Under the pieces are notes generated by a model. The model worked only from the letters and a program-made list of their open reading frames with translations. It was not told where the DNA came from and made no database searches. A DNA stretch of 64,000 nt from an uncultured Planctomycetia bacterium (GTDB lineage Bacteria > Omnitrophota > Gorgyraeia > Tantalellales > Tantalellaceae), in assembly GCA_964421015.1 (NCBI GenBank), contig CAYQUS010000004.1, positions 53,744-117,743 of the forward strand. The letters are read 5' to 3'. Of the stretch, positions 1,244-64,000 are shown one piece after another (within the stretch, counting starts at the first letter, position 1; every line of letters starts with the position of its first letter). The position numbers and the translations under genes were made by a program.

Positions 1244-1329
1244 GCGTCCTCCGTCTTTTGGGGCATTCGGGCTTTACCGTTGCGCGACAGCTGCGAAATT
1301 TCATCGCATTTCCCCCTGTGAGAAACAAA

Positions 1330-1361
1330 CCCCCCCGGCGATGAACTTCCCCGCCGGGGGG
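1330..1361 (-). terminator. Intrinsic terminator (riboswitch expression platform) between the cobalamin aptamer and the receptor start codon
   Basis: Minus strand: CCCCCCGGCG-GGGAAGTTCAT-CGCCGGGGGG, a 10-bp GC stem, followed by GTTTGTTTCT. Confidence 0.6.
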
Positions 1362-1424
1362 CTACCGTTTTGACCCCTCAACACCGTCCCGGCCTCCTCG
1401 GGCCGTTACGTCACTTTAAAACCA

Positions 1425-1600
1425 AGGGCAGGTCTTCTGGCTCAACCTCTCTTTAGGGAACCTTCCCGTCCTTTGGACAGTGGCGTTCTAGCCCGAAAGT
1501 TCCGCGTCTTTTACGCGGACGGTTTTACAGCGGCGGGACCGCGCCCGATTTCAACGGGCTTCCCTATTAAAGCCTTTCATAACACAAAAGGCTACCCTTA
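1425..1600 (-). promoter_or_regulatory. Adenosylcobalamin (B12) riboswitch
   Basis: Minus strand reads AATAGGGAAGCCCGTTGAAATCGGGCGCGGTCCCGCCGCTGTAAAACCG...GCCACTGTCCAAAGGACGGGAAGG...GAGCCAGAAGACCTGCCC. This matches the conserved cobalamin-riboswitch core (AGGGAA, GGTGAAAtCC-like segment, GCGGTCCCGCC.CTGTAA) and the B12 box (AGYCMGGAGACCKGCC). Confidence 0.85.
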
Positions 1601-1634
1601 AGATCTAATGATCCTTTTCACTTCATTGTTGCGC

Positions 1635-30791: not shown

Positions 30792-31988
30792 TTACTGCAA
30801 TATTTCCGCCACTACTCCGGCGCCTACCGTATGTCCGCCTTCTCTTATGGCGAACCTCAGTTCCTTCTCTATGGCTACCGGCGTTATAAGCTCAACTTCG
30901 ACCGTAACGTTGTCGCCCGGCATTACCATCTCCACTCCCTTAGCCAGCGTAACCACTCCGGTAACGTCCGTCGTCCTTATGTAGAACTGCGGCCTGTACC
31001 CGTTGAAGAAAGGCGTATGCCTTCCACCTTCTTCTTTGCTCAGTATGTACACCTCGGCCTTGAACTTGGTGTGCGGTGTTATAGACCCCGGAGCGGCAAG
31101 TACCTGTCCCCTCTCAAGATTGTTCTTGTCTATACCCCTCAAAAGCACTCCAACGTTGTCTCCGGCCTGACCCTCGTCAAGCAGCTTACGGAACATCTCT
31201 ATTCCCGTAACCGTGCTCTTCTTCGTGTCCCCAAGTCCCACTATCTCCACTTCTTCCCCGACCTTTACCTTACCTCTCTCTATCCTGCCCGTACCGACCG
31301 TTCCTCTTCCGGTTATGCTGAACACGTCCTCTATCGGCATAAGAAAAGGCTTGTCAACGTCTCTCACCGGCGTGGGTATGAAATTGTCGCAGGCGTCCAT
31401 AAGCTCGTCTATGAACTTGCAGTCCGGGCTATTGAGCGCTCCCTCCGCCTGAAGGGCCTTAAGCGCGCTGCCCTTGATTATCGGGGTCGTGTCGCCAGGA
31501 AAATTGTACTTCGTCAAAAGCTCTCTTATCTCAAGCTCAACAAGGTCAAGAAGCTCGGGATCGTCAACCATGTCCACCTTGTTCATGCATACCACTATCG
31601 CGGGCACGTTTACCTGCCTGGCCAGAAGTATGTGCTCTCTCGTCTGCGGCATCGGGCCGTCAGCCGCCGAAACTACAAGTATCGCCCCGTCCATCTGCGC
31701 CGCGCCCGTTATCATGTTCTTGATGTAGTCGGCGTGACCGGGACAGTCTATGTGCGCGTAATGCCTGGCGTTCGTCATGTACTCAACGTGCGCCACGGCT
31801 ATGGTAATTCCTCTTTCCTTTTCCTCGGGAGCCTTGTCTATGGTGTCAAAAGCCCTCTTCTCGGCCATGCCTTTATTCGCCAGGTACAACGTTATCGCGG
31901 ACGTAAGCGAAGTCTTGCCGTGGTCTACGTGACCTATCGTGCCTATGTTAAGATGCGGCTTTGTTCGTTCGAATTTTTCCTTGGCCAT
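30792..31988 (-). CDS. tuf: Elongation factor Tu, str-operon copy
   Basis: 398 aa; [17 protein letters not shown] motifs. The protein string is identical to the 46473..47669 copy. Confidence 0.95.
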
Positions 31989-32057
31989 GAGTCCTCCTAA
32001 AATTTTTTATCTGAAAATATATCCCTTTTTCAAGTGAACGTTACTCTATAATAACTA

Positions 32058-46472: not shown

Positions 46473-47669
46473 TTACTGCAATATTTCCGCCACTACTCCG
46501 GCGCCTACCGTATGTCCGCCTTCTCTTATGGCGAACCTCAGTTCCTTCTCTATGGCTACCGGCGTTATAAGCTCAACTTCGACCGTAACGTTGTCGCCCG
46601 GCATTACCATCTCCACTCCCTTAGCCAGCGTAACCACTCCGGTAACGTCCGTCGTCCTTATGTAGAACTGCGGCCTGTACCCGTTGAAGAAAGGCGTATG
46701 CCTTCCACCTTCTTCTTTGCTCAGTATGTACACCTCGGCCTTGAACTTGGTGTGCGGTGTTATAGACCCCGGAGCGGCAAGTACCTGTCCCCTCTCAAGA
46801 TTGTTCTTGTCTATACCCCTCAAAAGCACTCCAACGTTGTCTCCGGCCTGACCCTCGTCAAGCAGCTTACGGAACATCTCTATTCCCGTAACCGTGCTCT
46901 TCTTCGTGTCCCCAAGTCCCACTATCTCCACTTCTTCCCCGACCTTTACCTTACCTCTCTCTATCCTGCCCGTACCGACCGTTCCTCTTCCGGTTATGCT
47001 GAACACGTCCTCTATCGGCATAAGAAAAGGCTTGTCAACGTCTCTCACCGGCGTGGGTATGAAATTGTCGCAGGCGTCCATAAGCTCGTCTATGAACTTG
47101 CAGTCCGGGCTATTGAGCGCTCCCTCCGCCTGAAGGGCCTTAAGCGCGCTGCCCTTGATTATCGGGGTCGTGTCGCCAGGAAAATTGTACTTCGTCAAAA
47201 GCTCTCTTATCTCAAGCTCAACAAGGTCAAGAAGCTCGGGATCGTCAACCATGTCCACCTTGTTCATGCATACCACTATCGCGGGCACGTTTACCTGCCT
47301 GGCCAGAAGTATGTGCTCTCTCGTCTGCGGCATCGGGCCGTCAGCCGCCGAAACTACAAGTATCGCCCCGTCCATCTGCGCCGCGCCCGTTATCATGTTC
47401 TTGATGTAGTCGGCGTGACCGGGACAGTCTATGTGCGCGTAATGCCTGGCGTTCGTCATGTACTCAACGTGCGCCACGGCTATGGTAATTCCTCTTTCCT
47501 TTTCCTCGGGAGCCTTGTCTATGGTGTCAAAAGCCCTCTTCTCGGCCATGCCTTTATTCGCCAGGTACAACGTTATCGCGGACGTAAGCGAAGTCTTGCC
47601 GTGGTCTACGTGACCTATCGTGCCTATGTTAAGATGCGGCTTTGTTCGTTCGAATTTTTCCTTGGCCAT
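46473..47669 (-). CDS. tuf: Elongation factor Tu, second copy, in a tRNA-Thr-tuf-rpmG-tRNA-Trp-secE-nusG context
   Basis: The 398-aa protein string is identical to the 30792..31988 copy. Nucleotide identity runs from the stop codon to about 10 nt upstream of the ATG and then stops. Confidence 0.95.
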
Positions 47670-47855: not shown

Positions 47856-47983
47856 GCGCTTTTTCCACCGTTTCTTTTCCTCTATATCTTATCGGCTAAA
47901 GCTCAAAACCACACCATATGCTCGGCTTTAACGCCGGCACTGCATGTGCGGTATATGTATATTTTCGCCTAACCGAGATGTCG

Positions 47984-48011
47984 GAGTTAAGATTTTACCA
48001 AATAAGTCTTT
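47984..48011 (-). promoter_or_regulatory. Candidate sigma-70 promoter of the tRNA-Thr-tuf operon
   Basis: Minus strand: TTGACA (48011..48006), 16-nt spacer, TAAAAT (47989..47984). An AT-rich tract lies upstream. Confidence 0.45.
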
Positions 48012-48103
48012 TTTGTCAAGCCATATTTGCCATTTTTTTATTTTCTATTGTTTTTCACCCCGAACCGCCGCCACGGAAAGTTTTTTTTAGAAAATAACGG
48101 CAC

Positions 48104-48132
48104 TTTACTCCGAAGAGTTCATCGGATATACT
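48104..48132 (+). promoter_or_regulatory. Candidate promoter of the plus-strand small-protein operon
   Basis: TTTACT, 17-nt spacer, TATACT. It ends 8 nt before the ATG, so the transcript would be nearly leaderless. Confidence 0.3.
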
Positions 48133-48139
48133 TAATGCT

Positions 48140-48535
48140 ATGAAAAAACCGCCTTCTATGAGCTCTGCCTTAACAATGTGGACATTTTTCAGCCTCGGCA
48201 TACTTTCGTCGCTGGCCTTCCGTGTTCTCATAGTCTTCCACCACATCGATCCCGGAATGGTCCGCCCTGTGTGGTACGCCGGGGTCGCGGGCTATACTTT
48301 CTTTTTTTTCTACAGGTACGGCATATCGAAAAAACGTAAAAAAGCTGTTACGGATTTTGGCCTGCTTGAAAAAATATCCTCGGGGGAGTGCCTTTCGGGA
48401 GACGACAGAAAAGCCGCGGAGTATCTTTTTAGATCAATAACCAAGTCAAAAGAGGATATCAACTACCTTGTTATTTTTATTCTGTCGATAGTGGCAGTGG
48501 GCATAGACCTGGCCCTTAAAGCCGCGGGGAGATAG
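48140..48535 (+). CDS. Small integral membrane protein (3 predicted TM helices), unknown function
   Basis: 131 aa with hydrophobic segments at about 13-33, 43-60 and 108-128. First gene of a tightly spaced 4-gene plus-strand cluster. Confidence 0.55.
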   Translation: MKKPPSMSSALTMWTFFSLGILSSLAFRVLIVFHHIDPGMVRPVWYAGVAGYTFFFFYRYGISKKRKKAVTDFGLLEKISSGECLSGDDRKAAEYLFRSITKSKEDINYLVIFILSIVAVGIDLALKAAGR

Positions 48536-48538
48536 GCT

Positions 48539-49015
48539 ATGAGAAAACTGCCTGCCTTTGTCATATTAGCGCTGTGCCTGTCATCATGGGCCTATCCCGA
48601 AGCGGTTCACGCTCAACCTCTTTCGTCACGCCCCTCCGCTCCGGTCGTCGACCCCTCAGATCCGATGGATGCCGTACGGGAGAAGGTAGCCGACCAGATC
48701 TATCTTTATCGGGAGGTAATGCAGCACATATCTGATATCTCTGAAAGTTTCAGTTACGGGTACAATACCCCCGACGAAGCTCTCAAAAGGGTCCTTGTTC
48801 TGAGGCACGCCTACAACACCAAATCCGAGCCGCTTTGCCCCGAGATAAAGCGGTTCAATGACCTAATGAACCAGATGTTCTCGCGGCTCGAGAACTATTT
48901 CATCCATTTTAAGCAGATATACCGGGAGGATCCTTACCTGAACGCGAAACTTGCCGAGACAAAATTCTACACCGCCGAGGAAGCCGAAAGGCTTGAATAT
49001 ACTTACCTTAAATAG
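48539..49015 (+). CDS. Secreted protein of unknown function (signal peptide MRKLPAFVILALCLSSWAYPEAVHA)
   Basis: 158 aa. Starts 4 nt after the upstream gene. No recognisable motif. Confidence 0.5.
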   Translation: MRKLPAFVILALCLSSWAYPEAVHAQPLSSRPSAPVVDPSDPMDAVREKVADQIYLYREVMQHISDISESFSYGYNTPDEALKRVLVLRHAYNTKSEPLCPEIKRFNDLMNQMFSRLENYFIHFKQIYREDPYLNAKLAETKFYTAEEAERLEYTYLK

Positions 49016-49023
49016 GAGAAAAA

Positions 49024-49140
49024 ATGAAACTTTCATCGTCTCAGATAATTTCTTTGGCTGTCCTGGTGGCAATTACGATGATCGTGGTGTATATTCTTAG
49101 ACAGGAAATATCCGACATGCTTTTTCTCGGGGGGAAATAA
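49024..49140 (+). CDS. 38-aa single-TM peptide
   Basis: Hand-translated MKLSSSQIISLAVLVAITMIVVYILRQEISDMLFLGGK. Its stop overlaps the next start (TAACATG). Confidence 0.35.
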   Translation: MKLSSSQIISLAVLVAITMIVVYILRQEISDMLFLGGK

Positions 49141-49141
49141 C

Positions 49142-49465
49142 ATGACACTTGTATCGACCAAAACAAAATGCCGAATGATCGCAGCGGCAACTTTATCCTT
49201 TTCCCTATTCGCGTCCCCTTGTCCCGCCGACCCCATGGACAATCTTAGCAGAACAAGCATAGACCAGGCGACGCGTGAAGTCGACAAAGAGGTGATCCCG
49301 GAAAACTTTCAATGGGTGGTCCGCAAAAAGGCGGACATAAGAAAAGAAGACGGCCAGCTCATAGAGGATCCCGATAAAGACCTGGAAGGTTTTCCTCTCG
49401 AAGAAACCGCCGACGACTTCCCCCCATGCGCCCCGTGCTCCATCAAACCGCAAAAGAGCCGTTAA
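49142..49465 (+). CDS. Small secreted protein of unknown function (signal peptide; acidic; C-terminal PPCAPC)
   Basis: 107 aa. Last gene of the plus-strand cluster. Confidence 0.45.
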   Translation: MTLVSTKTKCRMIAAATLSFSLFASPCPADPMDNLSRTSIDQATREVDKEVIPENFQWVVRKKADIRKEDGQLIEDPDKDLEGFPLEETADDFPPCAPCSIKPQKSR

Positions 49466-49512
49466 CATTTACCGGCTACAAGCGGCGCGGATACTTTTTT
49501 TCAGCAAATCAA

Positions 49513-49541
49513 TTGACAAGAATTCAGAAAGAGTATATCAT
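49513..49541 (+). promoter_or_regulatory. Candidate promoter of tRNA-Gly
   Basis: TTGACA, 17-nt spacer, TATCAT. Located about 20 nt upstream of the tRNA 5' end. Confidence 0.45.
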
Positions 49542-49560
49542 TTTCCTTCGTGGCACAAGG

Positions 49561-49634
49561 GCGAGCGTAGCACAATGGTAGTGCAGAAGCCTTCCAAGCT
49601 TCCTACGTGGGTTCGATTCCCATCGCTCGCTCCA
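49561..49634 (+). tRNA. tRNA-Gly (anticodon TCC)
   Basis: GCGAGCG-TA-GCAC-AATGGTA-GTGC-A-GAAGC-CTTCCAA-GCTTC...GTGGG-TTCGATT-CCCAT-CGCTCGC-T-CCA. Confidence 0.85.
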
Positions 49635-49649
49635 TCTTTCCCGCGCTCC

Positions 49650-50108
49650 CTACTCCGCGTCTTGGCGATACTCAGATATAGGACTGCCTTCCGCTCCGGC
49701 ATAAAAAACAACTATTTCCGCCGGCTTATCGCCCTCGTTATAGCCGTAATGCCATGTATCTACCACCTCGACTATGGCCTCTCCTTCTTTTAGATGAAGA
49801 ATGTCCCCACGCTCGGTAACAACAGTAAGCTCTCCGCTCACCATGTATCCCGCGTTCATAACAGGATGCAAGTGCGTCGGAAGCTTTACCCCGGGAGGTA
49901 TTTTTATATCAAGAACGGTAATTTCGCTCTGCCCTTGAGGGTACCCTGGAAGAATGTTACCGTCCCATGAATTTGAAGTTTTAGCCAGTACTCGGGTTTC
50001 AATCGCCGTCTTTTCCGCTACCGCCTCTTCTCCACATGCCCCGGAATGTATCAAAAAAGCGAAACCCCATACAAATACACATCTTGCGATCTTCCTATAG
50101 GTTAACAC
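49650..50108 (-). CDS. Periplasmic cupin-domain protein
   Basis: Signal peptide, then a cupin_2 barrel with metal-site histidines (PTHLHP...H). Confidence 0.65.
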   Translation of the reverse strand: MLTYRKIARCVFVWGFAFLIHSGACGEEAVAEKTAIETRVLAKTSNSWDGNILPGYPQGQSEITVLDIKIPPGVKLPTHLHPVMNAGYMVSGELTVVTERGDILHLKEGEAIVEVVDTWHYGYNEGDKPAEIVVFYAGAEGSPISEYRQDAE

Positions 50109-50136
50109 TTATCCCCCTCTGCCCGGAAGTTATAAA

Positions 50137-50469
50137 CTATTTCTTATCGGTGCCCATAAGGGCTCCGCGTCTTTCCTCTCTCCTCTCTTGCCTTCTTTCT
50201 ATGCCGGCTTCTACTATGCCGGTGGCTTCCTTACCCACTTCTGATACGGCGGAAACAGCCGGTAGAGATGCTTTTTCGGAAGAAGCCGCGGTTTCCTGTA
50301 CAGCCGGGGTTTCTGTAACGATAGGGGCAGATCCCTCGGTAACAGCCGGAGCTTGAACGGAAACTTGCGTTTCATTGGCCTGCTGATCTACATTCTCTGG
50401 CTCTTCCGCGGCGAACGCCATACTGGAAACGAAAACTAATGCCATCACCATACTAATAATTTTTTTCAT
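50137..50469 (-). CDS. Small secreted low-complexity (Ala/Glu/Val/Thr-rich) protein with an Arg/Glu-rich C-terminus
   Basis: 110 aa; signal peptide MKKIISMVMALVFVSSMAFA. Confidence 0.45.
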   Translation of the reverse strand: MKKIISMVMALVFVSSMAFAAEEPENVDQQANETQVSVQAPAVTEGSAPIVTETPAVQETAASSEKASLPAVSAVSEVGKEATGIVEAGIERRQERREERRGALMGTDKK

Positions 50470-50730
50470 ACTGTCCCTCCTCCGGTCTGTTCTTCAGACT
50501 TTTTAATAAAGGTTTTCACCACCGGGGCGGTAAAAAAACATTCTCCCGGTGAACCATAAACCCGTTTATTATAACTCCGGGCTTCAAGATTGTAAACTTA
50601 ATGCCGTATCAACATATTACGTCTTTTTACGATACGCCCGGTCACCGGATCTGAGGAAATACGCTCTAAATTTTCCAGGGGTTACGCAAAGCCGAACATA
50701 AAAAAACTTCGCGGGCTTTCGCCTCGGCTT

Positions 50731-51522
50731 CTACTCCGCTATCTCGATGCAGTTAATAAGGAAGGTCCTGAGCTCCTGACGGAGATGACAGAAAGAATAA
50801 ACATAATCGCCTTTTATGCTCAGGGGGGTGATAGTCCTTTCCGTGATCTTTTCTTTCCACGAAGACCTGTACCTGATCTTTACGGGATCCTGTGTCTTTA
50901 TGGCTCGGTTCAATACCGTTAGCACATTCCCGCCGGCGGCAGCCGGGCCGGCCGTCTGCGTATAGGTCCTGGCTATATCCTCAACGTTCTCTATACCTCG
51001 TTCTTTCAGGACCTCTAAGGCCTTATTAAAAACTCTCCAGGTGGATATTACATCTGCCAGTGCCCTGTGCTGGAGTTCCGCCTTGATATCGAAATATGAA
51101 ACCACATTACCAAGACTATAACCGCCCGGAACGGTGAAACAGCTCCTTGCCAGCTCAAGAACGTCTATAACAAGATAATCGTTAAGTTCGGTCCTTTTAG
51201 GCCCCAGGGCCGCGGCCAGAAAACTTATGTCGAACCTGGCGTTATACGCTAGAAGAACTGAACCCCTTATGAATTCCATAAACCCGGGCAATACTTGGTC
51301 TATTACTGGCCTGCCTTTAAGCATGTCAGAAGATATCCTGTTCACTCTGTAAGCGCCTGGTGAAACGGGCCTTAAAGGGTCCACAAGCTCCTCAAAAACG
51401 CTCTCTTTACCGTCAGGCTCGCGGCGCATTGCCCCGATCTCGCATATAGCGTCACCTGAACCGGCAAAAAGCCCGGTAGTTTCAAAGTCGAAAACCGTAT
51501 ATGTAGCTTCACTTAAATTCAT
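50731..51522 (-). CDS. DnaQ-like (DEDDh) 3'-5' exonuclease fused to a C-terminal WYL-like domain
   Basis: Exo I motif FDFETTGL; Exo III H...D motif (QHRALADV). C-terminal about 70 aa is VKIRYRSSWKEKITERTITPLSIKGDYVYSFCHLRQELRTFLINCIEI, which matches the WYL-domain pattern. Confidence 0.7.
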   Translation of the reverse strand: MNLSEATYTVFDFETTGLFAGSGDAICEIGAMRREPDGKESVFEELVDPLRPVSPGAYRVNRISSDMLKGRPVIDQVLPGFMEFIRGSVLLAYNARFDISFLAAALGPKRTELNDYLVIDVLELARSCFTVPGGYSLGNVVSYFDIKAELQHRALADVISTWRVFNKALEVLKERGIENVEDIARTYTQTAGPAAAGGNVLTVLNRAIKTQDPVKIRYRSSWKEKITERTITPLSIKGDYVYSFCHLRQELRTFLINCIEIAE

Positions 51523-51579
51523 AGTGTTGTGTTCGGGGTATTGAGTATCGAGGATGCTCCTATCGGCCCCGGCGCCATT

Positions 51580-52386
51580 TTATCCCGATACTTTATAAGT
51601 GATACCCTCGCGACTTCCCTCTGCCGGGTATTTATTTATCTCCTCTTTGGCCGCGGCTATCCTTTCGTACAGATACGGATGGCTGCGGAGAAAATACACC
51701 CATTTCGCATCCCCTCCAAGCCGCTGTAATTTCTCGAGGAATGTAACTATGGCGTTCGGGTCATATCCCGCCTGATACATGTACTTTATGGAAAGCCTGT
51801 CAGCCGCGTATTCGTCCTGTCGCGAAAACCCGTTGGCCGCCAAAGTGTAAACAACGTTGGCCGCCTGCGAAAAATACTGCCATGCCTGGTCTTTTTTATC
51901 GGCGGGCCGCGTATCTAAAAGATATGCCAGGTTAAGGGCCATCTCGGCGCCGAGCCCTTTTTCCACCATTTTCATCACATGCCTTGCCTCATCATGGCCC
52001 ATCTCATGGGCTATAACCGCGGCAAGCTCGTCATCCGTAGCCGCGGCCAGAAGGCCCGTGGAAACCACTATGTAACCGCCTCCCGGAGTGAAGGCCTGTA
52101 TTTCCTTATCCTCGTAAACTATTATGTGTTTGTCGCGGATACGCGGAGAACCTATGGGAGAGGCCAGAGCGCGGGCCGTCTCAAGGGCCCGGGCATCCTT
52201 AACCAAGACTTTTCCCTGAAGTTTAGCTCTCAGGGTATTGATCGCGATGGAATCTTCCTGCTCTAGAGAAAGCCAGGCAGCCTCGTTTTTCTGAGTAGCA
52301 GGATTGTAATAGGTCGCGCAGCCCGAAAAGACCGCGCACATGAAAACCGCCAGAAAAAAATTTAAATACCTCAACGCCCTCATCAT
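51580..52386 (-). CDS. M48-family zinc metallopeptidase lipoprotein
   Basis: Lipobox FSGC; HEMGH zinc motif (AHEMGHDEARH). Confidence 0.75.
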   Translation of the reverse strand: MMRALRYLNFFLAVFMCAVFSGCATYYNPATQKNEAAWLSLEQEDSIAINTLRAKLQGKVLVKDARALETARALASPIGSPRIRDKHIIVYEDKEIQAFTPGGGYIVVSTGLLAAATDDELAAVIAHEMGHDEARHVMKMVEKGLGAEMALNLAYLLDTRPADKKDQAWQYFSQAANVVYTLAANGFSRQDEYAADRLSIKYMYQAGYDPNAIVTFLEKLQRLGGDAKWVYFLRSHPYLYERIAAAKEEINKYPAEGSREGITYKVSG

Positions 52387-52522
52387 AATTCACCATGCAT
52401 TCTCTGTCCGGGCTTTTTAAATCGCCGCGCTCATGCCCAACCTTTTCGTCTCAAAAAAATAAACGGTCCGGGGACGCCATACACCCGGGCCCCGGACCGT
52501 TCTACACACGAATAATTCCGGA

Positions 52523-53191
52523 TCAGAACGACCAGTTAGCAAGGACCATGAATTCCATAGGATCCTTGTTGCCGTTATAGTTACCCAGGCCTATTTGAAG
52601 GCCGTTCAGGTTGTTGGTGTAATTCACAAGCCCGAGCTGAAATCCCTTCATTTCGGCGGCGTAATTTACAAGCCCTCCCTGAAAACCCTTAAAAGTACCG
52701 TCGTTGAAATTTACGACGCCAAGCTGGGCGCCTACGGATTCTCCTTTGGAAACGTTAAGAACACCGCACTGCCCCCCGTGCAGAGTCCCTTCCGTCCAGT
52801 TCACAAGACCCCACTGTATGCCTGTGGTGTCACCGCCTACAATATTAGCCATGCCGTACTGAAGCCCCACAAAGCGCTGTTTAACGTAGTTTACCATTCC
52901 TATCTCTATACCGTAAGCGGATCCCTCAACCCAGTTACCAAGACCGAACTCTACTCCGCTCATGTCGCCGGTGGTCCTGTTGACACCGAACCACACAAGG
53001 CTTAGACCCGTAACGTCCTTGTTGACGGTGTAAAAAACGCTGAGCCTAAGCCCCTTTATTGACTGGTCCTCAGGCACGGTCTGTACAGGGTTGAAAAGCG
53101 CGAGCTGTAAAGGCTGTGCCTCCGTGGCAAAAGCCGTCCTGGCCATTGCCGAGATCAAAATAACTGCCGCCACAAAAAATTTTTTCATCAT
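52523..53191 (-). CDS. Secreted outer-membrane-type repeat protein: about ten tandem 15-residue repeats (consensus h-Q-x-G-h-V-N-aromatic-x-x-G-x-x-x-G) and a C-terminal Phe
   Basis: Signal peptide, then repeats such as IEIGMVNYVKQRFVG / LQYGMANIVGGDTTG / IQWGLVNWTEGTLHG / FQGGLVNYAAEMKG / FQLGLVNYTNNLNG. The protein ends ...LANWSF. Confidence 0.6.
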   Translation of the reverse strand: MMKKFFVAAVILISAMARTAFATEAQPLQLALFNPVQTVPEDQSIKGLRLSVFYTVNKDVTGLSLVWFGVNRTTGDMSGVEFGLGNWVEGSAYGIEIGMVNYVKQRFVGLQYGMANIVGGDTTGIQWGLVNWTEGTLHGGQCGVLNVSKGESVGAQLGVVNFNDGTFKGFQGGLVNYAAEMKGFQLGLVNYTNNLNGLQIGLGNYNGNKDPMEFMVLANWSF

Positions 53192-53297
53192 GTTTTTCTC
53201 TCCTCCTTTTAACCCCCGGTTTTATATTTTCCGATTTCCCTATTCAGATTCTACGCCTTAGGGAACATATTTTCAAACTTTATCTTTTTGAACGTCT

Positions 53298-53720
53298 CTA
53301 TTCCCCGATCACTTTTATCAAAACCCTTTTACGGCGCTGTCCGTCGAACTCTCCGTAAAATATCTGTTCCCACGGCCCCAGATCAAGTCTGCCGTTCGTG
53401 ACCGCTACCACCACTTCTCTTCCCATAACGGTCCTTTTAAGATGAGCGTCGGCGTTGTCCTCTCCGGTGAGGTTATGTTTATATTTGTCCACTCCGTAGG
53501 GCGCGAGTTTTTCAAGCCACACCAGAAAATCCTGATGCAGTCCGGACTCATTATCGTTGATAAAAACAGAACTTGTTATGTGCATGGAGTTAACAAGACA
53601 CATCCCTTCCTTAGCCCCGCACTTTTTTACGGCTGCCTCCACCTGTGGCGTTATATTAATAATGTCGTACCTTTTTTCGGTGTTTAACCATAGATAATCC
53701 GTATGAACTTTCATCGCCAT
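53298..53720 (-). CDS. YjbQ-family (UPF0047) secondary thiamine-phosphate synthase-like protein
   Basis: 140 aa matching the YjbQ fold motifs (DITP...[13 protein letters not shown]...HLKRTVMG). Confidence 0.7.
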
Positions 53721-53827
53721 TCCTTTTTCTTTTTACCGGCCTTGAGTTTGAACGCCAGGCTCTCTTTTTTCTCTCTCTGAAGGCGCGATATGTCTTTCTG
53801 GCGCCGGGTTATTGTGTGTTTAGTCAT
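53711..53827 (-). CDS. Possible 38-aa highly basic peptide overlapping the yjbQ start (speculative)
   Basis: Hand-translated [43 protein letters not shown] sits 8 nt upstream. Its TGA overlaps the yjbQ ATGGCGATGA start region. Confidence 0.2.
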
Positions 53828-53838
53828 TCGCTCGCTCC

Positions 53839-54045
53839 TCACTTTAAAGGTTCAGGATCTTTGCACGCGGCCCAGACCAAAGCCGCCACCCATCCTATAA
53901 AAGTCCAGCCAAGGAGCAGGTTCAGTATAAAAATAGCCCCGGCATTACGTTTTCTTCGGCCGACTATGGCGGGCAGAAAATAAAAGAACAGGCTGAATAT
54001 GACCGCTAACGCGATGATAAGTACCGCGATCGTTCCTTCTTGCAT
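53839..54045 (-). CDS. Imm-type superinfection immunity family small membrane protein
   Basis: 68 aa; LPAIVGRRKRNAGAIFILNLLLGWTFIGWVAALVWAA matches the conserved core of the T4 Imm-like (PF14373-type) family. Confidence 0.6.
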   Translation of the reverse strand: MQEGTIAVLIIALAVIFSLFFYFLPAIVGRRKRNAGAIFILNLLLGWTFIGWVAALVWAACKDPEPLK

Positions 54046-54242
54046 GTAAGCCTCCTTAAGTCAGGTTTTAACACACCCCAACTCTAATTATAAGTGGCAC
54101 GGTTTTGGGGGGAAGGTCCCCATCACAACCCTTAGGTCACGTTTTTGTAAACACTTGCATTATAGACTTTATCGACAAGGTTTTCAACAGCTTGGTGGCC
54201 AATTTACAGGGTAGATTTGGCCGACCGTGGGCATATAAGAAC

Positions 54243-54276
54243 AAAACCCAGGATCTCTCTGAGATCCTGGGTTTTG
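54243..54276 (-). terminator. Intrinsic terminator, potentially bidirectional, downstream of tRNA-Tyr
   Basis: AAAA-CCCAGGATCTC-tct-GAGATCCTGGG-TTTT: a perfect 11-bp stem with an A tract and a T tract on either side. Confidence 0.7.
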
Positions 54277-54404
54277 GCCTCGGTTATTATTTGTCTTGGT
54301 GTCCCTTGGAGCCGGGGTCGGCTCCAAGGATCCCCCATCTTTCCGGGAATCTCACAAAAACTTTCCGCCCAAGGTAAGGAAAGTTTTTGTGTATAGGTTA
54401 AGCT

Positions 54405-54489
54405 GGTGGGGAGGGAAGGATTCGAACCTTCGAAGGCGTAAGCCGGCAGATTTACAGTCTGATGCGTTTGGCCACTTCGCTACCTCCCC
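54405..54489 (-). tRNA. tRNA-Tyr (anticodon GTA), class II with a long variable arm
   Basis: Minus strand GGGGAGG-TA-GCG...CTGTAAA...long variable arm...GAAGG-TTCGAAT-CCTTC-CCTCCCC-A-CCA. 85 nt. Confidence 0.85.
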
Positions 54490-54750
54490 GAACGAGGTGT
54501 ATTCTATGTTATAGAGCGCTTTTTGTCAAATAGCCTAAACTTTGACCTGTGATTGCTACTTGCATATTACTGTTTTTTTAGATCCTTCGGTCGCTTCGCT
54601 CCCTCAGGATGACGAACTTTAGGCTCAGGAAAACACCTTGGTGACAGGCACCTTTGTATCACAACATAGACCAGACAAAGTTGCCAGTCACCAGTCGCGG
54701 CAAAGTTGCCAAACACCTTTGAAAACACATTGGTGCCAGGCACCAATTGC

Positions 54751-54799
54751 TTCCTCCTTCCTCCTTCCTCCTTACTCCTTACTCCTTACTACTTTCTAC
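54751..54799. repeat. Seven tandem degenerate heptamers (TTCCTCC x3, TTACTCC x2, TTACTAC, TTTCTAC) in the tRNA-Thr/tRNA-Tyr spacer
   Basis: Direct reading of the plus strand. On the transcribed (minus) strand it is a purine tract (GGAGGAA)3(GGAGTAA)2.... Confidence 0.8.
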
Positions 54800-54808
54800 T
54801 TAAAGACA

Positions 54809-54884
54809 TGGAGCCGGCGGAGGGATTTGAACCCCCGACAGGCTGATTACAAATCAGCTACTCTACCAACTGAGTTACGCCGGC
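54809..54884 (-). tRNA. tRNA-Thr (anticodon TGT)
   Basis: Minus strand GCCGGCG-TA-ACTC-AGTTGGTA-GAGT-A-GCTGA-TTTGTAA-TCAGC-CTGTC-GGGGG-TTCAAAT-CCCTC-CGCCGGC-T-CCA. Confidence 0.85.
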
Positions 54885-54918
54885 ATTCTATCGTTTTAAA
54901 GAGCATCGACCCGTAAAA

Positions 54919-54945
54919 GATATACTAAATGATGCGTAAAGTCAA
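54919..54945 (-). promoter_or_regulatory. Candidate promoter of the tRNA-Thr(TGT)-tRNA-Tyr transcription unit
   Basis: Minus strand: TTGACT, 15-nt spacer, TATATC. About 35 nt upstream of the tRNA 5' end. Confidence 0.3.
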
Positions 54946-55051
54946 GTAGCACGGGAACAGAACCGGGATTGGGATTTTTTTGCTGTTAAGTTCACCACAT
55001 TGGTGAAAGGCACCGGCGGTTCCAGTCACCGGAACCAGAGCCTCTTTGCCT

Positions 55052-63721: not shown

Positions 63722-64000
63722 CTATACTTCCTGTTTAGGAAGGATCTCCGAGATCTTCTTATTCTGGGACTCCCCGTAAAGGTTCCAGTGACGCGCCGTC
63801 ATCCTGAGCCCCTCCTCGGTAGAAACCCTCGGGACATAGCCCAGCACATCCCTTAAACGGGAAATGTCATAGACCCTGTCCTTGAATATACGGCCCATCT
63901 TGCGCCTCACAGACGGTAAAATCCTCGCCGTCTTTACCGCCCACGCCGGTATCACGAAAGGATCGGGAGATCCGAGTTCCTCAGCGATTATGTTTATGAA
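63722..64000 (-). CDS. C-terminal fragment of a probable NAD-dependent epimerase/dehydratase family protein; the start lies beyond the window end
   Basis: The frame is open to position 64000. The C-terminal ...DISRLRDVLGYVPRVSTEEGLRMTARHW resembles the end of SDR-type sugar epimerases. Confidence 0.35.
   Translation of the reverse strand, partial: FINIIAEELGSPDPFVIPAWAVKTARILPSVRRKMGRIFKDRVYDISRLRDVLGYVPRVSTEEGLRMTARHWNLYGESQNKKISEILPKQEV

What the first reader, a model, noticed from the sequence alone, without database searches (positions are those of the whole stretch)
54490..55040. Repeat-dense tRNA spacer: three copies of a 19-nt dyad motif, a 10-nt direct repeat and a 7 x heptamer tract around tRNA-Thr(TGT)
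The motif CAC(C/A)TTGGTG(A/C)(C/A)AGGCACC occurs at 54634..54652, 54726..54744 and 54996..55014. The last two are identical at 17 of 19 positions. Two copies lie between tRNA-Thr and tRNA-Tyr, and one lies just upstream of the putative tRNA promoter. Each contains internal dyad symmetry (GGTGcc..ggCACC and CACC..GGTG), as expected for a dimeric DNA-binding-protein operator or a recurring RNA hairpin. AAAGTTGCCA is directly repeated at 54677 and 54702. A CCAGTCACC element recurs at 54685 and 55022; the latter copy sits in the loop of a GGTTCC...GGAACC palindrome. Immediately 3' of tRNA-Thr on the transcript is (GGAGGAA)3(GGAGTAA)2(GTAGTAA)(GTAGAAA), a run of Shine-Dalgarno-like purine heptamers with no ORF to serve. 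None of this is needed for a simple tRNA spacer, so it may be a regulatory or structured-RNA element, or the remnant att-like repeats of the insertion described above.
Basis: seen in the sequence. Interest (0 to 1): 0.5.

Follow-up and report, generated by a model that had tools for sequence, protein, structure and literature searches.

The report
Selfish palindromic repeats crowding tRNA spacer
The repeats around tRNA-Thr are real, but they look like short selfish palindromic DNA (REP/TIR-like repeats, which in other bacteria flank IS200-type tyrosine transposase genes) plus a strain-specific microsatellite, recently inserted into a spacer that is only about 50 bases long in related genomes, so they are not a conserved regulatory element.

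Summary
The 19-nt motif occurs three times, against 0.01 expected by chance. A looser 13-nt core (GGTGCC-N-GGCACC-like) occurs six times, all within 54640-55030 and nowhere else in the 64 kb.

The operator and structured-RNA readings are not supported.
- Related Candidatus Omnitrophota genomes keep the order nnr, tRNA-Thr(TGT), tRNA-Tyr. Their Thr-Tyr spacer is only 49-57 nt, essentially the tRNA-Tyr promoter, and has no such motif.
- Another strain of the same species lacks the heptamer tract and carries extra partial motif copies there instead.

The same 19-mer is a multi-copy palindromic repeat in unrelated phyla (Oxalobacteraceae, Bacillaceae, Thermoleophilia, Ilumatobacter). In two cases, palindromes with this GGTGCC-W-GGCACC core directly flank both sides of an IS200-like Y1 tyrosine transposase gene of the RAYT/TIRYT type.

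Best reading: this is a lineage-specific cluster of REP/TIR-like selfish hairpin repeats. It lies next to a slippage-prone heptamer microsatellite and a CGTC-tagged hairpin. As a by-product the cluster probably separates tRNA-Thr from the independently promoted tRNA-Tyr.

No cognate transposase gene and no dispersed copies were seen in the sequence available for this genome.

Verdict: a new member of a known kind, of modest interest.

The parts
54996..55014 (-). Motif copy 3, CACATTGGTGAAAGGCACC on + (13-nt core 55002-55014). It lies between the nnr stop codon and the tRNA-Thr promoter. On the minus strand it reads GGTGCCTTTCACCAATGTG and is followed by GGTGAAC, which pairs back.
   Evidence: local fold -24.2 kcal/mol, z = -3.1 for 54988-55042. 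It is present in all same-species contigs L001-L005 and absent from relatives.
55018..55036 (-). Hairpin GGTTCC-AGTCACC-GGAACC. It contains a degenerate core copy, GGTTCCAGTCACC (55018-55030).
   Evidence: (D5).
54917..54945 (-). Sigma-70-like promoter of tRNA-Thr, TTGACT-17-TATCTT. It is conserved in relatives (TTGACA/TTGACT-17-TATCTT).
54809..54884 (-). tRNA-Thr(TGT).
54750..54802 (-). Heptamer microsatellite. On the transcript: GTAGAAA GTAGTAA (GGAGTAA)2 (GGAGGAA)3. It is unstructured and strain-specific.
   Evidence: period 7, 7.6 copies. (-1.7 kcal/mol, z = -0.4). Absent from strain contig L001.
54726..54747 (-). Motif copy 2. It includes a perfect 9-1-9 palindrome, ATTGGTGCC-A-GGCACCAAT (54729-54747). 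On the transcript the hairpin is followed by GUGUUUUC.
   Evidence: I7. (terminator-like site). (-12.5 kcal/mol, z = -2.2). The sequence CACATTGGTGCCWGGCACCAATGTG is shared with Ilumatobacter repeats.
54701..54717 (-). Degenerate core copy, CAAAGTTGCCAAACACC (13-nt core 54705-54717).
   Evidence: (D2).
54639..54693 (-). REPIN-like inverted dimer. Arm 54639-54657 holds motif copy 1 (54634-54652). Arm 54675-54693 holds a diverged copy, GTTGCCAGTCACC. The arms are 19 nt, 89% complementary, with a 17-nt spacer. On the transcript the dimer is followed by GGUGUUUUCC.
   Evidence: I1. (-28.6 kcal/mol, z = -4.2)..
54581..54614 (-). Second kind of hairpin element, CGTC-AT-CCTGAGGGAGCGAAGCGACCGAAGG-AT-C. 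It resembles CGTC-tagged palindromic repeats.
   Evidence: -12 kcal/mol, z = -1.4. Family description in PMC3733652. Single copy in the window.
54532..54625 (.). An 11-nt inverted repeat, AGCCTAAACTT / AACTTTAGGCT. It brackets the CGTC hairpin and an A-rich stretch.
   Evidence: I4.
54501..54529 (-). Strong sigma-70-like promoter of tRNA-Tyr, TTGACA-17-TAGAAT (11 of 12 matches). It sits at a conserved position in relatives (TTTACA-17-TAGAAT or TAAAAT).
54404..54489 (-). tRNA-Tyr(GTA).
54242..54276 (-). Terminator-like site downstream of tRNA-Tyr: a 16-bp stem followed by a U-rich tail (UUCUUAUAUG).

Best explanation
The 19-nt 'dyad motif' copies belong to a family of short, self-complementary extragenic repeats with the core GGTGCC-W-GGCACC, extended by CAC(A/C)TT...AA(T/G)GTG. 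In other bacteria this family is multi-copy, and palindromes built on its core flank genes for IS200-like Y1 (HUH) tyrosine transposases. Those transposases are of the RAYT/TIRYT type, matching subclass 2.1 of Quentin et al. 2018.

In this Candidatus Omnitrophota genome, six full or degenerate copies have colonised the two short intergenic segments on either side of tRNA-Thr(TGT). They are arranged as single hairpins and one inverted (REPIN-like) dimer. Together with a CGTC-tagged hairpin and a heptamer microsatellite, they expanded an ancestral spacer of about 50 nt to 319 nt.

Shown:
- The repeats and hairpins are real.
- The locus was expanded in this lineage only.
- The segment next to the tRNA-Thr 3' end turns over between strains.
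- The 19-mer and its core are identical to sequence in transposase-associated repeats elsewhere.
- tRNA-Tyr has its own conserved promoter.

Inferred:
- The copies arrived or multiplied by single-strand, hairpin-directed Y1 transposase action or by local duplication and slippage.
- They are neutral or selfish rather than regulatory.
- As a side effect, the hairpins, each followed by GUGUUUUC, pause or terminate tRNA-Thr transcripts or protect their 3' ends. tRNA-Thr and tRNA-Tyr would then be separate transcription units here.
For: 1. Non-random cluster. The 19-mer occurs 3 times (0.01 expected). The 13-nt core occurs 6 times (0.14 expected), all within 400 nt. The hairpins are stable: the dimer folds at -28.6 kcal/mol, z = -4.2.

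2. Not conserved.
- Relatives with 66-74% identical Nnr keep the order nnr, tRNA-Thr(TGT), tRNA-Tyr.
- Their spacers are 49 nt (L129-131) and 57 nt (L128), holding only the Tyr promoter. In L126/127 the spacer is 258 nt of unrelated insert.
- None of these loci has a core motif.

3. Strain turnover. L001 is the same species (identical PdxJ, near-identical flanks). It replaces the 65-nt heptamer segment with 39 nt carrying two more partial motif copies, TTTGGCGCCTGGA and TTTGGTGCCTGGCAC.

4. The same sequence elsewhere.
- Among the 121 matches in those stretches there are three high-copy palindromic families. Oxalobacteraceae-type has 26, Bacillaceae-type 28 and Thermoleophilia-type 29.
- A further 5 are CACATT..AATGTG palindromes. 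The other 33 are unclassified, mostly single hits, about as many as my chance estimate of roughly 20-35.

5. Transposase link.
- In Pseudoduganella violacea (L117), a 249-aa ORF is bracketed on both sides by the palindrome that contains the 19-mer. The ORF matches Y1_Tnp (PF01797, E = 1.6e-7) and NCBIfam REP_Tyr_transpos (E = 4e-19).
- In an actinobacterial contig (L135), a 285-aa homolog is bracketed by AATGTTCGTTGGTGCCAGGCACCAATGAACATT and TGTTCGTCGGTGCCTGGCACCGACGAACA.
- In Ilumatobacter (L049), the motif lies 13 nt after the stop of a homolog.
- These proteins carry NH[YTF]H and Y-I-x-L/A-N-P motifs. L117 also has a C-terminal HTH. This matches subclass 2.1/TIRYT, which Di Nocera 2013 describes as flanked by TIRs that are sometimes self-complementary and occur in dimers or clusters (PMC3733652; PMC6006769).

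6. Separate promoters. TTGACA-17-TAGAAT lies just upstream of tRNA-Tyr and is conserved in relatives. The copy-2 hairpin was scored as terminator-like.
Against: - No Y1 transposase homolog is encoded in the 64-kb window or in the same-species contigs.
- All copies sit in one cluster, with none elsewhere in 64 kb even at 3 mismatches. Dispersal within this genome is therefore not shown. The cluster could have arisen mostly by local duplication: copies 1 and 2 share a 24-nt unit at 92% identity (D1).
- The canonical GT[AG]G foot of REPs is absent.
- The U-tracts after the hairpins are short (4 U), so terminator activity is uncertain.
- In Neobacillus (L092) the Y1 homolog is about 640 nt from the nearest copy, so that association is loose.
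- Why unrelated phyla share an identical 19-mer is explained only by inference, either conserved transposase specificity or horizontal transfer.
Confidence: 0.62

Rival explanations
1. The hairpins are functional RNA elements that evolved or were recruited in place. They would act as intrinsic terminators or 3'-end-protecting stem-loops that insulate tRNA-Thr from tRNA-Tyr, possibly releasing a stable spacer RNA.
For: - The copy-2 hairpin is followed by GUGUUUUC and was flagged as terminator-like.
- The inverted dimer folds at -28.6 kcal/mol (z = -4.2) and is followed by GGUGUUUUCC.
- tRNA-Tyr has its own strong promoter.
- REP elements are known to act as terminators or mRNA stabilisers (background in PMC3733652).
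Against: - Relatives have no hairpin between the two tRNAs, so the function is dispensable.
- One copy lies upstream of the tRNA-Thr promoter, where it cannot terminate tRNA-Thr.
- The U-runs are only 4 nt.
- The whole spacer has z = -1.9 only.
- No Rfam family matches.
- This rival is compatible with the best explanation as a secondary effect.
Confidence: 0.17
2. The repeats are scars of site-specific integration and excision at the 3' end of tRNA-Thr. On this view they are att-like or end-binding repeats of an integrative element that has mostly been lost.
For: - Strain differences start exactly after the tRNA-Thr CCA.
- In relatives L126/L127, a ~190-nt insert is followed by a direct repeat of the tRNA-Thr 3' end, GTTCGAATCCCTCCGCCGGCTCCAGAGA.
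- DNA downstream of tRNA-Tyr differs between contigs that carry an identical Nnr (L129 vs L130).
- Many assemblies break at this tRNA.
Against: - No second copy of the tRNA-Thr 3' end exists anywhere in the window, even with 3 mismatches.
- No integrase or transposase gene was noticed among the ORFs between tRNA-Tyr and tuf. They were read only as translations and were not scanned against Pfam; only a Y1 query was run.
- One copy lies upstream of the tRNA.
- The spacer has no match in plasmid or phage collections beyond the tRNA body.
- The motif is at chance level in viral contigs, with 3 hits.
- In other genomes the motif shows no tRNA preference: 2 of 121 hits lie within 600 nt of a tRNA.
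Confidence: 0.1
3. The 13/19-nt dyads are operators for a dimeric DNA-binding protein that regulates the tRNA genes.
For: - The motif has dyad symmetry.
- Several sites lie near two promoters.
Against: - The motif is absent from orthologous promoter regions of all relatives, although the promoters themselves are conserved.
- Copy number varies between strains.
- The sites lie 50 nt upstream of the -35 element or downstream of the gene, not over the promoters.
- Elsewhere, the same sequence behaves as a dispersed repeat linked to a transposase gene.
- A sigma-54 reading fails: the -12 GC is missing in TGGCACCAATGTGTT, read directly from the sequence.
Confidence: 0.05

Closest known systems
TIRtron / TIRYT-associated inverted repeats (Di Nocera et al. 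2013, PMC3733652). The proteins correspond to TnpA-Y1 subclass 2.1 of Quentin et al. 2018 (PMC6006769), i.e. Bertels group 1 RAYTs.
   Same: - Palindromes with the same GGTGCC-W-GGCACC core directly flank Y1 transposase genes with subclass-2.1 signatures in L117 and L135.
- The repeats are self-complementary.
- They occur as dimers and clusters.
- They form moderately abundant families.
- Copy 1, GGTGACAG, matches 7 of 8 positions of the published GGGGWSAS motif.
   Different: - No TIRYT gene was seen in this genome's available sequence.
- The published shared motif is GGGGWSAS. A gammaproteobacterial homolog, L134, does have GGGGTCAC.
- The GGTGCC-W-GGCACC variant was not found in any searchable paper.
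- Quentin et al. reported finding no REP-like sequences next to subclass 2.1 genes.
Canonical REP / REPIN / BIME elements with their RAYT (E. coli, Pseudomonas)
   Same: - Short, imperfect extragenic palindromes.
- Inverted dimers.
- Clusters in intergenic DNA.
- Hairpins that can affect transcript ends.
- Association with a single-copy Y1 transposase in other hosts.
   Different: - No 5' GT[AG]G foot.
- High copy number in this genome is not shown.
- The associated proteins score below the NCBIfam RAYT equivalog cut-off (47-69 bits against 80).
CGTC-tagged palindromic repeats (Di Nocera et al. 2013). This applies only to the 54581-54614 hairpin.
   Same: - A CGTC tag is followed by A-T as the first two stem pairs.
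- The location is extragenic.
   Different: - The stem is 5 bp plus interrupted pairs with an 11-nt centre, rather than an 8-9 bp stem with a 4-5 nt loop.
- The tail is not CCA.
- It is single copy in 64 kb.
- The phylum is not among those reported.
tRNA 3' external transcribed spacers acting as RNA sponges (e.g. 3'ETS-leuZ in E. coli; from my own knowledge)
   Same: The purine-rich, Shine-Dalgarno-like tract lies in the 3' trailer of a tRNA.
   Different: - The tract is missing in another strain of the same species and in all relatives.
- No partner RNA is known.

Membership tests
REP/REPIN with RAYT (canonical) | Short (20-40 nt) imperfect palindrome able to form a stem-loop | tested here: met
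   a 9-1-9 perfect palindrome at 54729-54747, and a 19-nt-arm inverted dimer at 54639-54693 (-28.6 kcal/mol).
REP/REPIN with RAYT (canonical) | Extragenic location | tested here: met
   All copies lie between the nnr stop, tRNA-Thr and tRNA-Tyr.
REP/REPIN with RAYT (canonical) | Many copies dispersed around the same genome | tested here: not met
   Within the 64-kb window, plus about 3 kb more from L001, all copies are in one 400-nt cluster.
REP/REPIN with RAYT (canonical) | Conserved 5' GT[AG]G tetranucleotide at the foot of the hairpin | tested here: not met
   The feet read GCAA|TTGG and ACAAA|GGTG. GTAG occurs only inside the heptamer tract, about 40 nt away.
REP/REPIN with RAYT (canonical) | Cognate Y1 transposase gene flanked by the repeats in the same genome | tested here: inconclusive
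   No homolog was found among six-frame ORFs of the window or of L001-L006 (phmmer). The remainder of the genome is not available.
TIRYT/TIRtron-associated repeats (Y1 subclass 2.1) | The repeat sequence is the one that brackets a TIRYT-type gene | tested here: met
   Met in other organisms only. In L117 the palindromes contain the exact 19-mer. In L135 they share the 13-nt core. Both bracket the gene on both sides. In L049 the motif lies at the 3' side.
TIRYT/TIRtron-associated repeats (Y1 subclass 2.1) | Associated protein has NH[YF]H, Y[IV]xLNP and a C-terminal HTH | tested here: met
   Tested on the L117, L092 and L049 proteins, compared with Table 1 of PMC6006769. The HTH was detected only in L117.
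TIRYT/TIRtron-associated repeats (Y1 subclass 2.1) | Shared GGGGWSAS motif in the repeat | tested here: inconclusive
   The window copies read GGTGACAG (7 of 8) and GGTGCCAG (6 of 8). The L134 homolog has exact GGGGTCAC.
Intrinsic (Rho-independent) terminator | G+C-rich stem-loop immediately followed by a U-run | tested here: inconclusive
   One hit in the consensus scan: 54747..54729, 8 pairs, tail GUGUUUUCAA. It has only 4 consecutive U, and they start 3 nt after the stem.
Transcription-factor operator | Conserved position relative to a conserved promoter in orthologous loci | tested here: not met
   The promoters are conserved, but the motif is absent in L126-L131.
tRNA-targeted integrative element (att scar) | Direct repeat of the tRNA 3' end bounding the inserted DNA | tested here: not met
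   The window holds only the tRNA's own 3' end, at up to 3 mismatches. The feature is met in relatives L126/L127.
Known RNA family (Rfam) | Covariance-model match | tested here: not met
   Only the two tRNAs match at gathering or permissive thresholds. The other hits are far below threshold.
CGTC-tagged REP (54581-54614 only) | CGTC tag, A-T first stem pairs, 8-9 bp stem, 4-5 nt loop, CCA tail, multi-copy | tested here: inconclusive
   The tag and the A-T pairs are present. Stem and loop geometry, tail and copy number do not fit.

The most novel reading that the evidence does not exclude
GGTGCC-W-GGCACC palindromes may be the conserved recognition hairpin of one clade of subclass-2.1 Y1 transposases that has spread horizontally across at least five phyla: Pseudomonadota, Bacillota, Actinomycetota, and possibly Patescibacteria/Caldisericota and Omnitrophota.

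If so, a subclass reported as lacking REPs would in fact drive REPIN-like repeat populations. The Omnitrophota tRNA-Thr locus, with two alleles that differ by repeat gain and loss, would catch this process in action in an uncultivated lineage.
Probability: 0.3. Interest if true: 0.5.

Novelty: new member of a known kind. Interest (0 to 1): 0.3.

Why it matters
For this locus, the result prevents an over-reading. The dense repeats are not a tRNA regulator or a new sRNA. They are recently acquired, strain-variable repeat DNA. They also explain why metagenome assemblies of this organism keep breaking at tRNA-Thr.

More generally, an identical 19-mer forms high-copy palindromic families in unrelated phyla. 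Palindromes with its core bracket TIRYT-type Y1 transposase genes. This gives a concrete, testable DNA substrate for a large and poorly understood transposase subclass. That subclass was reported to lack REP partners.

Tried and rejected
- Rfam at gathering and permissive thresholds found only the tRNAs.
- A literature search for the motif strings found only unrelated eukaryotic papers.
- A search for the assembly and run accessions in papers found nothing.
- Sigma-54 promoter reading: rejected, because the -12 GC is absent and the spacing is off.
- Phage origin: rejected. The 19-mer has only 3 hits in IMG/VR, which is chance level. The spacer does not match phage or plasmid records outside the tRNA body.
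- A species-specific 24-nt form scanned against JGI metagenomes gave 0 hits.
- A related-locus scan with Nnr in metagenomes gave only 2 loci, neither useful.
- Exact-protein look-ups for Nnr, P0001, the YjbQ-like protein, the 68-aa protein and the 59-aa spacer ORF were all not on record. I therefore could not get contigs entering the spacer from the tRNA-Tyr side.
- A profile search for Y1 homologs returned mostly Oxalobacteraceae and none named Omnitrophota.
- A third apparent allele in L003 (CCATGAGATCGG) is most simply an Illumina adapter start (AGATCGG) at a contig end, not a variant. This rests on my own knowledge of the adapter sequence.
- The L002 junction to a different tRNA-Tyr looks like an assembly chimera.
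- An ORF-coverage heuristic for classing hits as intergenic failed in high-GC genomes and was dropped.
- A second CGTCATCCTGAG match at window 63797-63808 is a chance 12-mer inside a coding region.
Full report
**1. The observation**

- tRNA-Thr(TGT) lies at 54809-54884 and tRNA-Tyr(GTA) at 54404-54489, both on the minus strand.
- The 19-nt motif occurs at 54634, 54726 and 54996. That is 3 matches against 0.01 expected, and no shuffle reached 3.
- The 10-nt and 9-nt repeats and the heptamer tract are confirmed.
- Two small corrections apply. CCAGTCACC starts at 54684, not 54685.

The motif belongs to a larger set. A 13-nt core, G[GT]T[GT]..A..CACC, is close to the palindrome GGTGCC-N-GGCACC. 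It occurs six times, all between 54640 and 55030 and nowhere else in 64 kb (0.14 expected). Allowing 3 mismatches adds nothing.

**2. Anatomy on the transcribed (minus) strand**

Reading from the nnr stop codon towards tRNA-Tyr:

- a hairpin, GGTTCC-GGTGACT-GGAACC
- motif copy 3
- a promoter-like site, TTGACT-17-TATCTT
- tRNA-Thr
- 9 nt, then seven purine heptamers, which are unstructured (-1.7 kcal/mol)
- motif copy 2, a perfect 9-1-9 palindrome followed by GUGUUUUC (-12.5 kcal/mol, z = -2.2)
- a degenerate copy
- an inverted dimer, with 19-nt arms, a 17-nt spacer, -28.6 kcal/mol and z = -4.2. Its 3' arm is motif copy 1, again followed by GUGUUUUC.
- a different hairpin that starts with CGTC
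- a strong promoter, TTGACA-17-TAGAAT, 11 nt upstream of tRNA-Tyr
- tRNA-Tyr and a terminator-like hairpin with a 16-bp stem

The 'spacer' is therefore an intergenic region with hairpins and an independent tRNA-Tyr promoter. It is not simply a co-transcribed linker. The whole 319 nt folds only slightly better than shuffles (z = -1.9). No Rfam family matches apart from the tRNAs.

**3. Comparison with the same species and with relatives**

The organism is a member of Candidatus Omnitrophota, judged from the source names of Nnr homologs. Identical PdxJ proteins led to six contigs of the same species, several of them from JGI and ENA metagenomes.

- Nearly all these contigs stop at tRNA-Thr.
- The one that continues, L001, is near-identical to the window except directly after the CCA end. 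There the 65-nt segment with the heptamers is replaced by 39 nt, TAGATTTGGCGCCTGGATTTGGTGCCTGGCACGTTCTCC. This carries two further partial copies of the motif.
- A third apparent variant, in L003, is most simply an adapter sequence at a contig end.

Relatives whose Nnr is 66-74% identical keep the order nnr, tRNA-Thr(TGT), tRNA-Tyr and both promoters.

- Their Thr-Tyr spacer is 49 nt (L129-131) or 57 nt (L128). It consists essentially of the Tyr promoter.
- The segment between nnr and the Thr promoter is also about 90 nt shorter.
- None of them has a single core motif.
- L126/L127 have a 258-nt spacer of unrelated sequence ending in a direct repeat of the tRNA-Thr 3' end. This is an integration scar, so this tRNA is a hotspot in the lineage.

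The repeat-dense DNA of the window is thus a lineage-specific insertion of about 260 nt plus about 90 nt, and it is still changing between strains. That argues against a conserved operator or structured RNA.

**4. The same sequence elsewhere**

I ran an exact scan of one genome per bacterial species for the minus-strand form, GGTGCCTGKCACCAAKGTG. My rough chance expectation is 20-35 hits. Among the 121 matches in those stretches:

| Type | Hits | Repeat context |
|---|---|---|
| Oxalobacteraceae | 26 | GAGCCCGTGTCCACCTT-GGTGCCTGGCACC-AAGGTGGACACGGGCTC |
| Neobacillus/Bacillus | 28 | followed by GGTGACACC...GGTGTTCACC and GTGGACAC..GTCCAC |
| Thermoleophilia/Gaiellaceae | 29 | tandem or inverted 13-mers, often right after stop codons |
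| Extended CACATT...AATGTG palindromes | 5 | Ilumatobacter, Caldisericales, Lachnospiraceae |
| Unclassified | 33 | mostly single hits, some in conserved coding genes |

The unclassified hits are about as many as the chance estimate. Viral contigs hold only 3 hits. Only 2 of the 121 hits lie within 600 nt of a tRNA, so the family has no tRNA preference.

**5. Link to a transposase**

- In P. violacea (L117), two inverted copies of the palindrome directly bracket a 249-aa ORF. The ORF matches Pfam Y1_Tnp and, below the equivalog cut-off, NCBIfam REP-associated tyrosine transposase.
- Homologs lie next to the motif in Ilumatobacter (L049, 13 nt after the stop). The association is looser in Neobacillus (L092).
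- A further homolog, fetched from an actinobacterial metagenome contig (L135), is bracketed by two 29-33-nt palindromes with the same GGTGCC-W-GGCACC core.
- A gammaproteobacterial homolog (L134) is bracketed instead by TIRs containing GGGGTCAC.
- The proteins share MGR..R..GA.YH.T.RGN, NH[YTF]HL and RYI.LNP. L117 also has a C-terminal HTH.

These are the signatures of TnpA-Y1 subclass 2.1 (PMC6006769). That paper equates the subclass with the TIRYTs of Di Nocera et al. Those authors describe flanking inverted repeats that are sometimes self-complementary, form dimers, clusters and moderately abundant families, and often contain GGGGWSAS (PMC3733652). Copy 1 of the window, GGTGACAG, is one mismatch from that motif. 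The GGTGCC-W-GGCACC variant itself appears in no searchable paper.

**6. Interpretation**

The most economical reading is a cluster of REP/TIR-like selfish palindromes in permissive intergenic DNA beside a tRNA hotspot.

- The mechanism of spread is inferred from the family: Y1 HUH transposases act on single-stranded hairpins.
- In this genome neither the enzyme nor dispersed copies were seen. Local duplication and slippage may account for part of the cluster, because copies 1 and 2 share a 24-nt unit.
- The heptamer tract is a strain-specific microsatellite. Its Shine-Dalgarno-like look, and the 59-codon TTG ORF that follows it, are most likely incidental.
- A secondary role of the hairpins as transcript-end elements for tRNA-Thr is plausible but untested.
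- The element at 54581-54614 resembles CGTC-tagged repeats but fits that family only partly.

**7. Verdict**

- Observation: confirmed.
The suspicion of mobile or repeat DNA: supported.
- Classification: a new member of a known kind of repeat.
- Interest: modest for the locus itself. A side observation is worth a specialist's follow-up: one 19-mer shared across phyla, whose core is tied to a transposase subclass said to lack REPs.

Noticed in passing
L007-L120 (species-representative genomes): The exact 19-mer GGTGCCTGKCACCAAKGTG forms high-copy palindromic repeat families in Oxalobacteraceae, Neobacillus/Bacillus and Thermoleophilia/Gaiellaceae. It also occurs in Ilumatobacter, in a Patescibacteria MAG (three tandem 15-nt units, L031) and in a Caldisericales MAG (L054). 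The reason for cross-phylum identity is unexplained; conserved transposase specificity or horizontal transfer is inferred.
   Followed up: partly
L117 330-1195; L135 1434-2411: Subclass-2.1-like Y1 transposase genes are bracketed on both sides by perfect or near-perfect palindromes with a GGTGCC-W-GGCACC core. Quentin et al. 2018 reported finding no REP-like sequences next to this subclass.
   Followed up: partly
L126 3843-4176, L127 3967-4300: In a related Omnitrophota genome, tRNA-Thr(TGT) is followed by a ~190-nt insert and then a direct repeat of its own 3' end (GTTCGAATCCCTCCGCCGGCTCCAGAGA). This is the signature of site-specific integration into this tRNA.
   Followed up: partly
L129 vs L130, downstream of tRNA-Tyr (from about 4101): Contigs that encode an identical Nnr protein carry completely different DNA after tRNA-Tyr: a Zip transporter region in one, an HTH-gene region in the other. 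The flank of the Thr-Tyr tRNA pair is a strain-variable hotspot.
   Followed up: no
window 54581-54614 (minus strand): CGTCATCCTGAGGGAGCGAAGCGACCGAAGGATC is a CGTC-tagged hairpin with a GCGAAGC centre. It resembles the CGTC-tagged repeats of Di Nocera et al. but has atypical stem and loop sizes. It is single copy in the window and absent from viral contigs.
   Followed up: partly
window 54586-54605 vs 54467-54486: The CGTC hairpin region is 80% identical over 20 nt to the 5' acceptor/D-arm part of the adjacent tRNA-Tyr (GAGGGAGCGAAGCGACCGAA vs GAGGTAGCGAAGTGGCCAAA). This could be chance or a relic of a partial tRNA duplication.
   Followed up: no
window 54567-54746 (minus strand): A 59-codon ORF starts at a TTG 6 nt after the last GGAGGAA heptamer, which is an ideal Shine-Dalgarno spacing. 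It runs through the palindromes (its translation begins MVPGTNV). It is on record in no assembly and the heptamers are missing in strain L001, so it is probably spurious.
   Followed up: partly
window 47900-54400: About 6.5 kb of assorted genes lie between tRNA-Tyr and the usual tRNA-Thr(GGT)-tuf-rpmG-tRNA-Trp-secE-nusG block. By my reading of the translations they include an M48-type peptidase, a DnaQ-like exonuclease, a YjbQ-like protein and a cupin protein (not tested). A tRNA-Gly(TCC) sits on the opposite strand (49561-49634). The two proteins nearest tRNA-Tyr are not on record in any other assembly, so the segment may be strain-specific.
   Followed up: no
window about 30800-32000 and 46473-47669: Identical tandem-repeat hits at a constant offset of 15681 nt (31532 vs 47213, 31808 vs 47489, 31928 vs 47609) indicate two near-identical tuf copies in the window.
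   Followed up: no
window 1253-1330 and 1410-1614 (minus strand): Two cobalamin riboswitch aptamers lie in tandem: AdoCbl-II (51.5 bits) and Cobalamin (101.2 bits).
   Followed up: no
L003 end (2791-2799); L002 from about 2760: There are assembly artefacts at this locus. L003 ends in AGATCGG, which looks like the start of an Illumina adapter. L002 (GCA_029565455.1) switches inside the tRNA-Thr T-arm to a different tRNA-Thr 3' end plus a different tRNA-Tyr 6 nt later, which is probably a chimeric join.
   Followed up: partly
L033, L038, L082, L103 (Blautia, Butyrivibrio, Lachnospiraceae): GGTGCCTGTCACCAATGTG followed by GTCAACTTAAGATA-like sequence recurs near contig ends and upstream of Sel1-repeat genes. 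No transposase was found nearby, and its nature is unknown.
   Followed up: partly
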